A stretch of DNA of 64,000 nucleotides from Escherichia coli (lineage in GTDB: Bacteria; Pseudomonadota; Gammaproteobacteria; Enterobacterales; Enterobacteriaceae): the NCBI RefSeq assembly GCF_048403405.1, contig NZ_CP183129.1. One strand, written 5' to 3'. The position numbers are program-made. Of this stretch, positions 36,001-39,000 are shown one piece after another; position 1 is the stretch's first letter; every line of letters begins with the position of its first letter.

Positions 36001-39000
36001 GATGGATAGCAGGTCAGGGATATACGGCATTTATTCTTTCTTACAGAATGCCCTCCGTTAATGGTTATTATTCCTTTGCAGATGCGAAGAATGCCCTGAA
36101 CTTTATTTCTTACTGGGCCGGAATGTCGGAGAGAACATTTAAGAGTGTTGGATGTATGGGGTTTTCGGCAGGTGGTCATCTTGCTGGATATATTACTCAT
36201 CTCCATTATGAGGAAGAGACTTCTGTGCGTCCTGACTGGATGGCTCTGATATATCCAGTTATATCTCTTGACAGGAGTATTGCTCATCAGGGATGCCGGA
36301 AACGTCTTCTGGATGCAGGTGAAAGTGAATATTCAGCCAGTCTTGAAAATAGTGTTACAGAGTATATGCCACCAGTCTTTATTGTGCATGCAACAGATGA
36401 TAAGGATGTTCCAGTTATTCATTCTCTGAGATATTTTAACTCTATTCGGGATAAGGGACATCATGCAGAAGCTCATTTTTTTGATAAGGGAGGTCATGGA
36501 TTTGGTGTATCCGGAAAAAATGGATATCCGATAGAAAAATGGCAAAGCCTGCTTCTGGAATGGCTTGCGGAACATAAGTTTTATTGAGAAATCAAATTAC
36601 AAGTGATAAATATATTTAATGATGAGGCATTTATGAAAAAATATTATCCACTATTAACTGTAATTCTTCTTGGTTTACCTTTGTGCTCTCAGGCATTAAC
36701 TCTTAATCTACGTGGGGGATACAGAAGCGCCAGTCACGCTTATGAAACGTTGATTCAGGTTAGTCAGGGGTGGAATAATGGTTGGTGGGCAAGTTTTGAG
36801 TCAAACACCTGGAATACAATTCACAACAATGAAAATGAATTGTTTGCACTCAATTATAATAAAATAGATATAAATAAAACATATAAAATAGATGACAAAT
36901 GGGCTCTAATCCCAGGGATTCAGACACAATGGATGTCAGCAGGAAGTCAGTATAACCCTTATCTGAAAATTTCGTATCAGGCAACGCCAGATCTTAATCT
37001 GGCCTTACGCTATCGCTATGACTGGAAAGCTTTCCGACAGACGGATTTAGATGGCAACAGGGCGCGTAATGATCAGCATCAGTTTGATGGTTATGTGACA
37101 TACAAAATTAATGATTCATGGTTGTTTGCATGGCAGACCACGGTATATACGAAGGTTAATAATTTCAAATATGGGAATCATAAAAAAACAGCAACTGAAA
37201 ATGCATTTGTTCTGCAATATAAAATGTCACCGGTGTTCACCCCATATATAGAATATGATTACTTGGATAAACAAGGGGTGTATAAGGGGAAAGATAATAA
37301 ACATGAAAATAGTTACCGTGTCGGTGTTCTGATTAATTTTTAAAAGGTGATTACAATGAAAGTGAAAAACTTTATATATCTTCCCTTCTGCTTGTTTATT
37401 GGAACGTCGGTAGCCGGAGCTTTACCGGAAATTCCTGAACCATTTAAATATGGTGTAGGAGGGATTGAGAATGGTAAAATATATATAGGACTGGGAAGTC
37501 TGGGAAATAACTGGTATATGATAGATACAAACCAGAGTGAAAAAAAATGGACTAAGATAGCGCAATGGCCGACAGTTCCCAGAGAGCAGGCAACAGCTAC
37601 TATTATTGATGGTAAGATCTATGTATTTGGAGGAATTGGAAAAGATACAAGTGGAGTCATAACCTTACAAAAAGATGTCTATTCCTATGATATTGCTAAA
37701 GATAAATGGGAAAAATTGATGACCCGTCCCCCTGTATCTCTTGCCGGTCATGTTTCTTTTATCCATAATGGTCATGCGGTATCTACTGGTGGTGTAAATG
37801 AGAATATTTTTAATGGATACTTTTCAGATGTCGAGTTATCAAAAGGGAATTCCGCGCTGACAGAGAAAGTCAACAGGGATTATTTTAGTAAACCTGCTGA
37901 TGATTATTTTTTAAATAATCATATAATTTCTTATGACCCGTCAAAAAACCAGTGGAAGAACCTGGGAACGACTCCATTTCCGGGAACTGCTGGTTCATCG
38001 GTGATTTTTGCAGAACAGCAAATTTATATACTGGGAGGGGAGAGAAAACCGGGGCTTCGTTCTGTTAGATCCTGGACGGGGGAGCTTTCGCATGATCGAA
38101 TTAAATGGTCTGAACTTCCACCAGTAGCTTCACCCGAGGGGGTGTCAGGAGCATATGCCTCTGTTATTGATGGAAATATCTTTCTGGCCGGTGGTGCATA
38201 TTTCCCGGGAGCGGCAGAAAAGTATAGCAATGGTGAATACTGGTCTCATAAAGGACTGGATAAAGCCTATTCAAAAGAGATATATCAGCTAATAAAAAAT
38301 GACTGGAAAAAAGTTGGTTCTTTGCCGGAAGGACTTGCTTATGGTGTAAGCCTGCCCTGGCAGGGGGGATGCTCATTCTGGGGGGGAGAAAAAAGATGGT
38401 AAAGCTGTTTCAGATGTTATTTATCTGAAAAAAAATGACAAACAAATAAAGATTGTTAAATAACTGTAATGCAGGTGACTGTATTAGTTGTTCAGTCACC
38501 TGAGTTATTTTAATGGGGTTTATAATGAATAAAGATAGATCTTTAAATGAAATGATGTTAAGCTTGTTTAATAAATCAACTATTGTTGACTTGTCAAGTG
38601 AGACAATATCTGAGAGTAAATCTCTTTCAGGCCGTATTTATCAGGATCCTGAACATAACGGGGAATTTGAACTTGATTGTGTATTGACAGATATTTATGC
38701 TCCTCAGTTAATTATTTTTTTACCAGATAAACCAAATGGAACAGGAATATTGATTATTCCCGGGGGGGCTACCAGGCTGTTATGTTAGATAAGGAAGGTA
38801 CAGCTCTTGCTCCAGAGTTTTTATCTCAGGGCTATACATTATTTGTTCTTAGTTACAGATTACCATCGCCAGTTGAGGGAGAAAATATAAACAAAACTTT
38901 TATTGATGCAATATCTGCAATGCTTTATATTCGTAAGAATGCTGATAAATGGCATCTACAGCGTCATCGTATTGGTGTATTAGGATTTTCTGCTGGGGGG

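What the first reader, a model, noticed from the sequence alone, without database searches (positions are those of the whole stretch)
38755..38775. G7 homopolymer splits the second esterase paralog
The esterase paralog is broken exactly at a run of seven G (38762..38768); changing the run length by one restores a continuous frame matching the first esterase. This is either a phase-variable slipped-strand switch, a genuine inactivation, or a homopolymer sequencing error.
Basis: seen in the sequence. Interest (0 to 1): 0.45.

Follow-up and report, generated by a model that had tools for sequence, protein, structure and literature searches.

The report
Probable homopolymer sequencing error in esterase
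The seven-G run that splits this E. coli esterase gene is real in the sequence, but it is most likely a one-base undercall of an eight-G run by long-read sequencing, so the gene is probably intact and the finding is ordinary.

Summary
A G7 run at 38762-38768 splits an alpha/beta-hydrolase gene into ORFs of 91 and 221 aa, and G8 restores a 311-aa protein.

The window is the sialic-acid ("nan") module of the E. coli pheV pathogenicity island. Of 689 complete E. coli genomes carrying the locus, 658 have G8, 17 have G7 and 1 has G9.

The window carries the marks of an unpolished nanopore-type assembly:
- Its only other differences from intact alleles in the 6-kb module are two more G-run contractions in nanM and three changes inside Dam GATC sites (two GATC>GATT, one GATC>GATTC, which "frameshifts" nanS).
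- The same changes recur on unrelated haplotypes.
- They also differ between assemblies of one strain: EcN_Sk versus Nissle 1917, and Esc7/Esc23 versus Esc1.
- est2 G7 is about 24-fold enriched among assemblies that also have the nanM contractions.

Most likely this is an assembly artefact (about 0.8).

The tract is nonetheless a genuine slippage hotspot. Clean G7 and G9 alleles occur on at least four haplotypes each, many on short contigs typical of draft assemblies. A real null allele therefore remains possible (about 0.15).

An evolved phase switch is unlikely. Syntenic orthologues keep the P-G-G-G motif without a G tract.

The parts
38762..38768 (+). G7 homopolymer. It is G8 (codons CCC GGG GGG GGC = P-G-G-G) in the intact allele.
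   Evidence: Counts among 689 complete genomes: G8 658, G7 17, G9 1.
38513..38788 (+). 5' fragment of esterase 2 (91-aa ORF) ending in an out-of-frame tail ATRLLC*
   Evidence: The same 91-aa product with R56 is on record on 162 contigs.
38782..39447 (+). 3' fragment of esterase 2 (221-aa ORF). It carries the GFSAGG nucleophile elbow and the rest of the BD-FAE/Abhydrolase_3 domain, and is otherwise identical to intact alleles.
35757..36587 (+). Esterase 1, a distant paralogue (37% identity). Its PGGG is encoded CCT GGA GGT GGA, with no tract.
38363..38368 (+). G6 run in nanM (G7 in CFT073 and Nissle). This is the first of two contractions that truncate nanM.
38380..38386 (+). G7 run in nanM (G8 in CFT073 and Nissle). 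This is the second contraction.
37356..38402 (+). nanM (N-acetylneuraminate epimerase), truncated to 348 aa instead of 369 aa
37463..37466 (+). GATT where intact alleles have the Dam site GATC
   Evidence: The same change recurs in Esc23 but not in its clonal siblings Esc7 and Esc1, and it occurs on other haplotypes.
38675..38678 (+). GATT where intact alleles have the Dam site GATC. It creates an apparent R56C change in esterase 2.
   Evidence: Shared only with Nord58.
40871..40875 (+). GATTC where intact alleles have GATC. The extra T splits the nanS-like SASA esterase (40314-40895 and 40870-41304).
39483..40217 (-). nanR-like GntR/FCD regulator of the module, intact

Best explanation
The window is the nan (sialic-acid catabolism) module of the ExPEC pheV genomic island. 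Esterase 2 is a BD-FAE/Abhydrolase_3 serine esterase, and its P-G-G-G loop is encoded by CCC GGG GGG GGC, a G8 tract.

In this window the tract reads G7. The most likely reason is that the source genome is a long-read (nanopore-type) assembly that was not fully polished, so the consensus undercalled the G8 by one base. On this reading the gene is intact in the organism, and the 'split' is an assembly artefact, as are the truncated nanM and the split nanS next to it.

Shown: the tract, the frame effect, the population distribution of tract lengths, the co-occurring motif-specific differences, and the recurrence of the same differences in replicate assemblies of single strains. Inferred: the sequencing platform of the window's source, and therefore that this particular G7 is an error.
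For: (1) Over 64 kb the window differs from CFT073 by only five single-base indels. Three are contractions of the G runs of 7 or more in nanM and est2, one is a T inserted in a GATC, and one is intergenic. None of its A7-A9 or T7-T9 runs differ.

(2) In the 6-kb nan module every non-homopolymer difference lies inside a Dam site: GATC>GATT at 37466 and 38678, and GATC>GATTC at 40874. With 16 GATC sites in 6 kb, the chance of three out of three is about 1e-6. Methylation-motif errors, including a C read as T two bases after a 6mA, and homopolymer errors are documented for nanopore assemblies (PMC12392509, PMC11610603).

(3) The same differences appear between assemblies of one strain. EcN_Sk versus reference Nissle 1917 differs in unique sequence by homopolymer contractions, including est2 G8>G7 and nanM G7>G6 and G8>G6, plus scattered base substitutions and one non-homopolymer indel in the IS-rich downstream part. 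Esc7 versus Esc1 differs over 40 kb only by the est2 G and a TC/CT swap. The 37466 C>T change is present in Esc23 but not in Esc7 or Esc1.

(4) The (6,7,7) triple pattern occurs on at least 3 SNP haplotypes and 2 island architectures: the window, C25, UID2309220041 and GCA_040812995.1.

(5) In complete genomes est2 G7 is about 24-fold enriched among assemblies with the nanM double contraction (3 of 9 versus 14 of 680, Fisher p=0.001).

(6) The closest relative, Nord58 (6 SNPs in 37.7 kb), has G8.

(7) 658 of 689 complete genomes have G8.

(8) Apart from the motif sites, both est2 fragments are identical to intact alleles.
Against: No reads or platform metadata are available for the window, and its source genome could not be identified. 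The G8 at 4102-4109 is not contracted, and no A/T run is, so the error profile would have to be context-specific. Genuine G7 alleles do exist: assemblies with intact nanM tracts and no other indels carry G7, for example L014, L015, L018 and L019, and most occurrences are on short contigs. A real slippage event in this strain therefore cannot be excluded. Nord58 looks like an even noisier assembly, yet it kept G8.
Confidence: 0.8

Rival explanations
1. This strain carries a genuine -1 slipped-strand mutation. The G8 tract lost one G during replication, giving a null allele of esterase 2. This is ordinary mutational inactivation at a hotspot, possibly part of decay of the whole nan module in this lineage.
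For: Clean G7 alleles (nanM intact, no other indel) occur on at least 4 haplotypes, and G9 alleles on at least 4. Many of these lie on 5-50 kb contigs typical of draft assemblies. The G7 product is recorded on 162 contigs and the G9 product on 58, against at least 1000 each for the two intact proteins. Three adjacent genes of one pathway are broken in the window.
Against: All four lesions in the module sit at motifs prone to long-read error (G runs of 7 or more, GATC), and none sits elsewhere. The same lesion set recurs on unrelated haplotypes and differs between replicate assemblies of one strain. The nearest relative has G8. No further decay (stops or extra substitutions) is seen in the fragments.
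Confidence: 0.14
2. The tract is an evolved contingency locus. G8 and G7/G9 interconvert at high frequency and reversibly switch esterase 2 ON and OFF within populations. With the nanM tracts, this would switch O-acetyl-sialic-acid foraging as a whole.
For: The tract lies in the 5' third of the ORF (codons 84-86 of 311). Both -1 and +1 alleles recur on several haplotypes. Three G tracts of 7 or more cluster within 400 bp of a 37-41% GC module, whereas 50 kb of core genome has none. Host-glycan genes are typical targets of phase variation in other mucosal bacteria (established knowledge; for example poly-G pgtA, PMC2193922).
Against: Syntenic orthologues at 58% and 53% identity keep I-P-G-G-G-Y-Q-A-V but encode it as CCC GGT GGG GGA or CCC GGG GGA GGG, with no tract, and their nanM has no tracts either. 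G8 is present in 95.5% of complete genomes. At least 8 assemblies of ATCC 25922 and 3 of CFT073 all show G8. G8 is short for a mismatch-repair-proficient E. coli (established knowledge). Much of the observed length variation is demonstrably artefact.
Confidence: 0.05
3. The G7 allele is real and is decoded by -1 ribosomal or transcriptional slippage on the G run, yielding some full-length esterase.
For: A P-site tRNA-Gly slipping -1 on GGG GGG G would read ...P-G-G-G-Y-Q..., which is exactly the intact sequence. This is an inference from the sequence.
Against: There is no canonical X XXY YYZ heptamer in frame. No downstream stimulatory structure was looked for or is needed by any data. The G7 allele is rare and not conserved.
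Confidence: 0.01

Closest known systems
Long-read (Oxford Nanopore type) consensus errors at homopolymers and at Dam/Dcm methylation motifs
   Same: The window shows one-base contractions of long G runs together with substitutions or indels inside GATC. Only some motif occurrences are affected, and the errors differ between replicate assemblies of the same strain (PMC12392509, PMC11610603).
   Different: The platform of the window's source is not known. A/T runs up to 9 and one G8 (4102-4109) are unaffected.
RefSeq 'alpha/beta hydrolase, frameshifted' pseudogene calls at this locus (e.g. C25 QRM69_RS05910, Esc7 ACWOKV_RS12995, EcN_Sk ACHMSZ_RS04255, UID2309220041 ACYTVN_RS19980)
   Same: These carry the identical G7 allele at the identical position and have already been flagged by PGAP.
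   Different: The window additionally carries R56C (GATC>GATT) and the nanS +T, which no RefSeq complete genome shares in combination.
nan module of the pheV-tRNA genomic island of UPEC (PMC11537424)
   Same: Same gene order and at least 99.9% nucleotide identity to CFT073: lyase, ROK kinase, MFS, esterase 1, KdgM porin, NanM, esterase 2, NanR(-), SASA esterase, then shiF-iucABCD-iutA.
   Different: That paper reports the module as highly conserved (99.6%). It does not discuss the G tracts.
Homopolymeric-tract phase-variable genes of Neisseria, Haemophilus, Campylobacter and Helicobacter (e.g. gonococcal pgtA poly-G, PMC2193922)
   Same: A poly-G tract early in an ORF, where +/-1 changes abolish the frame. 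Natural alleles of three lengths exist.
   Different: The tract is only 8 long, the ON length dominates at 95%, the tract is not conserved in orthologues, the host is mismatch-repair proficient, and no within-culture heterogeneity has been shown.
PDB 6a6o 'esterase/lipase-like protein' and other BD-FAE/Abhydrolase_3 carbohydrate or acetyl esterases (7dwc, 3hxk)
   Same: E=1.9e-35 over residues 62-310. The PGGGY loop and the GFSAGGH nucleophile elbow are conserved. Pfam BD-FAE scores 72 bits against a cutoff of 26.8.
   Different: The substrate of esterase 2 is unknown. A role in de-O-acetylating sialic acids is inferred only from its place in the nan module.

Membership tests
Slipped-strand phase-variable (contingency) locus | A simple-sequence tract placed so that +/-1 unit switches the reading frame | tested here: met
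   G8 gives a 311-aa ORF. G7 and G9 terminate after 91 and 93 aa.
Slipped-strand phase-variable (contingency) locus | Tract length varies among very close relatives or within one strain, independent of sequencing noise | tested here: inconclusive
   G7 17, G9 1 and G8 658 of 689 genomes. Clean G7 and G9 alleles occur on at least 4 haplotypes each. However, within-strain differences (EcN_Sk, Esc7/23) travel with other assembly errors, and no reads are available.
Slipped-strand phase-variable (contingency) locus | The tract is maintained in orthologues (selected mutability) | tested here: not met
   Syntenic orthologues L033 (58% identity) and L034 (53%) encode PGGG with runs of at most G5. Paralogue esterase 1 uses CCT GGA GGT GGA.
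Slipped-strand phase-variable (contingency) locus | High-frequency, reversible switching measured in culture | not testable with these tools
   This needs fluctuation or reporter assays, or deep amplicon sequencing.
Long-read assembly artefact | A one-base length error in a long homopolymer relative to accurate assemblies of near-identical sequence | tested here: met
   Three G-run contractions relative to CFT073, Nissle and 658 other genomes.
Long-read assembly artefact | Co-occurring errors at DNA-methylation motifs in the same assembly | tested here: met
   All 3 non-homopolymer differences in the 6-kb module lie in GATC. P is about 1e-6.
Long-read assembly artefact | The same differences are irreproducible between assemblies of one strain and recur on unrelated backgrounds | tested here: met
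   EcN_Sk versus Nissle; Esc7/Esc23 versus Esc1; the (6,7,7) pattern on at least 3 haplotypes; association with Fisher p=0.001.
Long-read assembly artefact | Read pile-up or polishing with accurate reads corrects the site | not testable with these tools
   No reads are available, and the source genome was not identified.
Decaying pseudogene | Additional disabling or non-synonymous changes accumulate beyond the first lesion | tested here: not met
   Outside the G tract and one GATC site, the est2 sequence equals intact alleles.
BD-FAE / Abhydrolase_3 alpha/beta-hydrolase esterases | Pfam domain above the gathering score, a G-x-S-x-G nucleophile elbow, and a Gly-rich oxyanion loop | tested here: met
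   PF20434 scores 72.2 bits against a cutoff of 26.8. GFSAGG and PGGG align to PDB 6a6o. Catalysis itself was not tested.
GI-pheV nan module | Gene content and order, and near-identity to the CFT073 module | tested here: met
   99.94% identity over 13 kb with identical gene order. The module is described in PMC11537424.

The most novel reading that the evidence does not exclude
The G8 tract in esterase 2, together with the G7 and G8 tracts at the end of nanM 400 bp upstream, is a genuine low-frequency slipped-strand ON/OFF switch. It would let ExPEC populations vary expression of the island-borne sialic-acid (O-acetyl-sialate) foraging module. That would be a homopolymer contingency locus in mismatch-repair-proficient E. 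coli.
Probability: 0.06. Interest if true: 0.5.

Novelty: not a real feature. Interest (0 to 1): 0.12.

Why it matters
If the call is right, the practical lesson concerns annotation hygiene. Three 'pseudogenes' in a virulence-island sugar-foraging module (nanM, esterase 2, nanS) are probably artefacts. They should not be read as pathway loss or phase variation in this strain.

The side result could be worth a small follow-up. The est2 G8 tract does produce real G7 and G9 null alleles repeatedly in natural E. coli. It is therefore a mutational hotspot that can knock out this esterase in a few per cent of isolates. That would matter only if the esterase proves important for use of O-acetylated sialic acids in the gut or urinary tract.

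Tried and rejected
(1) Control G8 tract at window 4102-4109. The 78-mer is exact in only 38 of 765 genomes because of allelic and paralogue SNPs, so it cannot serve as an error-rate control.

(2) Looking for a G/C run of 8 or more in core genes as a control. The first 50 kb of the CFT073 chromosome has no G/C run of 7 or more at all, so this was abandoned.

(3) Identifying the source genome. No RefSeq complete E. coli genome is identical over 1 kb or 2.65 kb. Exact look-ups of the window's own est2 and nanS fragments are not on record. The nearest records are Nord58 and GCA_040812995.1.

(4) A lineage-inherited triple lesion. This was rejected because the (6,7,7) pattern sits on different SNP haplotypes and island architectures.

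(5) General low-quality sequence. This was rejected because no A/T homopolymer differs and there are no scattered indels over 64 kb. The errors are motif-specific.

(6) Programmed frameshifting. This was considered from the sequence only, there is no support for it, and it was not pursued.

(7) Structure prediction and fold search. These were not run, because sequence matches to Pfam and PDB were already unambiguous.

Full report
**1. The observation**

Window 38762-38768 is a run of seven G flanked by C on both sides. It separates a 91-aa ORF (38513-38788) from a 221-aa ORF (38782-39447). Lengthening the run to G8 gives one 311-aa ORF reading ...IIPGGGYQAVMLDKEG.... G6, G7 and G9 terminate early.

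The restored protein is the annotated CFT073 alpha/beta hydrolase WP_001328061.1. It belongs to Pfam BD-FAE/Abhydrolase_3. It matches PDB 6a6o at E=1.9e-35, with the PGGGY loop and the GFSAGGH nucleophile elbow conserved. It is 37% identical to the first esterase at 35757-36587, and the alignment runs straight across the tract.

**2. Context**

The window is the nan module of the ExPEC pheV genomic island. The gene order is N-acetylneuraminate lyase, ROK kinase, MFS transporter, esterase 1, KdgM-type porin, NanM, esterase 2, NanR (minus strand) and a SASA-family sialate O-acetylesterase. These are followed by shiF-iucABCD-iutA, sat and iha. The module has been described as highly conserved among UPEC (PMC11537424). 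The window is 99.94% identical to CFT073 over the 13 kb around the tract.

**3. Population distribution of the tract**

The locus is present in 689 of 5426 complete E. coli genomes.
- The exact G8 78-mer is in 658.
- The exact G7 77-mer is in 17.
- The exact G9 79-mer is in 1.
- The remaining 13 presumably correspond to the 13 records that are only 95-99% identical over the 1-kb query; their tract length was not read.

So homologues elsewhere are overwhelmingly intact. RefSeq already labels the G7 copies 'frameshifted'.

**4. What else differs in the window**

Against CFT073 over 64 kb there are only five single-base indels:
- G6 instead of G7 at 38363-38368, in nanM.
- G7 instead of G8 at 38380-38386, in nanM.
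- G7 instead of G8 in esterase 2.
- An extra T at 40874 that splits the SASA esterase.
- One intergenic base.

None of the window's A7-A9 or T7-T9 runs differ, and the G8 at 4102-4109 is unchanged.

Within the 6-kb nan module the only non-homopolymer differences are 37466 C>T, 38678 C>T and the +T at 40874. All three lie inside Dam sites of the intact allele: GATC>GATT twice and GATC>GATTC once. With 16 GATC sites in 6 kb, the chance of three out of three is about 1e-6.

Homopolymer undercalls and errors at methylated motifs are the documented residual errors of nanopore assemblies. They include a C called as T two bases downstream of a 6mA, and only some occurrences of a motif are affected (PMC12392509; PMC11610603).

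**5. The same differences are irreproducible within strains and recur on unrelated backgrounds**

- EcN_Sk is an assembly of Nissle 1917. Over 40 kb of unique sequence it differs from the reference Nissle assembly by homopolymer contractions: C6>C5, G5>G4, nanM G7>G6 and G8>G6, A8>A7, est2 G8>G7 and C7>C6. It also shows scattered base substitutions and one non-homopolymer indel in the IS-rich downstream part, and blocks of substitutions in repeated elements.
- Esc7 and Esc1 are two of about 30 near-identical assemblies. Over 40 kb they differ only by the est2 G and a TC/CT swap.
- The 37466 C>T change is present in Esc23 but absent from Esc7 and Esc1.
- The full (6,7,7) pattern of the window also occurs in C25, UID2309220041 and GCA_040812995.1. 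These represent at least three SNP haplotypes and two island architectures, aerobactin-linked and IS/iha-linked.
- Five different strains of one project (the UID23.../UID24... series) all show the nanM double contraction.
- Among complete genomes, est2 G7 occurs in 3 of 9 assemblies with the nanM double contraction and in 14 of 680 without it. The odds ratio is 24 and Fisher p=0.001.
- The window's closest relative, Nord58 (6 SNPs in 37.7 kb), shares the two GATT changes and the nanM contractions. It also has further indels inside GATC sites, but it reads G8 in esterase 2.

Project- and assembly-linked co-occurrence of this kind is what an artefact predicts. Independent real mutations would not produce it.

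**6. The tract is nevertheless a real hotspot**

The G7 product (91 aa, R56) is on record on 162 contigs and the G9 product (93 aa) on 58. Most are on contigs shorter than 50 kb, which is typical of draft assemblies. The two common intact proteins are each on at least 1000 contigs, which is the counting cap.

Several G7 loci (L014, L015, L018, L019) and G9 loci (L023-L025, L028-L032) have intact nanM tracts and no other indel. They sit on at least four haplotypes each.

Real -1 and +1 slippage alleles therefore arise repeatedly in nature. For that reason a genuine null allele in this strain cannot be excluded.

**7. Is it an evolved switch?**

Two syntenic nan modules at 58% and 53% protein identity were examined. 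One is from a metagenome contig and one lies next to F-plasmid tra genes. Both keep I-P-G-G-G-Y-Q-A-V but encode it as CCC GGT GGG GGA or CCC GGG GGA GGG, and their nanM has no tracts. Esterase 1 uses CCT GGA GGT GGA. At least eight assemblies of ATCC 25922 and three of CFT073 all read G8.

The tract thus looks like a lineage-specific run of synonymous GGG codons, not a conserved device. Reversible high-frequency switching was not testable here.

**8. Verdict**

| Reading | Probability |
|---|---|
| Assembly artefact (G8 undercalled); the nanM and nanS lesions have the same origin | about 0.8 |
| Real one-off slippage null allele | about 0.14 |
| Contingency switch | about 0.05 |
| Recoding by slippage during decoding | about 0.01 |

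Interest is low. The useful outcome is that three apparent pseudogenes in this module should not be taken at face value. The est2 G8 tract is also a minor natural mutational hotspot.

Noticed in passing
window 38363-38368 and 38380-38386: Two more G runs (G6 and G7) at the 3' end of nanM are each one base shorter than in CFT073 and Nissle (G7 and G8). They truncate NanM to 348 aa. The exact intact 97-mer is present in 576 of 689 genomes. The Esc assemblies examined (Esc1, Esc7, Esc23) read (7,7) and encode a 357-aa NanM (WP_236922018.1), and several ST131 assemblies are likewise one base short of the intact length over the two tracts. In that lineage the allele may be real.
   Followed up: yes
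window 40871-40875 (ORFs 40314-40895 and 40870-41304): The nanS-like SASA sialate O-acetylesterase is split by an extra T that turns a Dam site GATC into GATTC. No RefSeq complete genome shares it.
   Followed up: yes
window 37466 and 38678: Two apparent SNPs are both GATC>GATT. The first recurs in Esc23 but not in its clonal siblings, and it also occurs on other haplotypes. The second creates R56C in esterase 2 and is shared only with Nord58.
   Followed up: yes
window 2076-3505: There is a 1430-bp insertion relative to CFT073 between the DUF4942 and DUF957 genes. It carries a 367-aa IS110-family transposase (PF01548 and PF02371).
   Followed up: partly
window 4102-4109: This is the only other long G run (G8) in the window. 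It lies in a DUF5983-family gene on the minus strand and has the same length in CFT073. Most other genomes differ nearby by SNPs.
   Followed up: partly
L033 (ENA metagenome contig) and L034/L035 (E. coli contigs next to traI-traX-finO): Divergent copies of the whole two-esterase nan module (53-58% protein identity for esterase 2) keep the same gene neighbourhood. One lies beside F-type conjugation genes, which suggests the module is mobile as a cassette.
   Followed up: partly
L010 (Nord58) 16695, 19084, 22342, 32781: The closest relative has several single-base deletions or substitutions inside GATC sites. Examples are AGATCT losing C, CAGATC losing G, and GATC>AATC. These frameshift the KdgM porin and esterase 2 elsewhere.
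   Followed up: partly
window 25445, 25520, 50816-50831, 50998: There are multi-base indels (7, 14, 16 and 8 bp) relative to CFT073 in intergenic stretches upstream of hha and downstream of iutA. They look like real strain differences.
   Followed up: no
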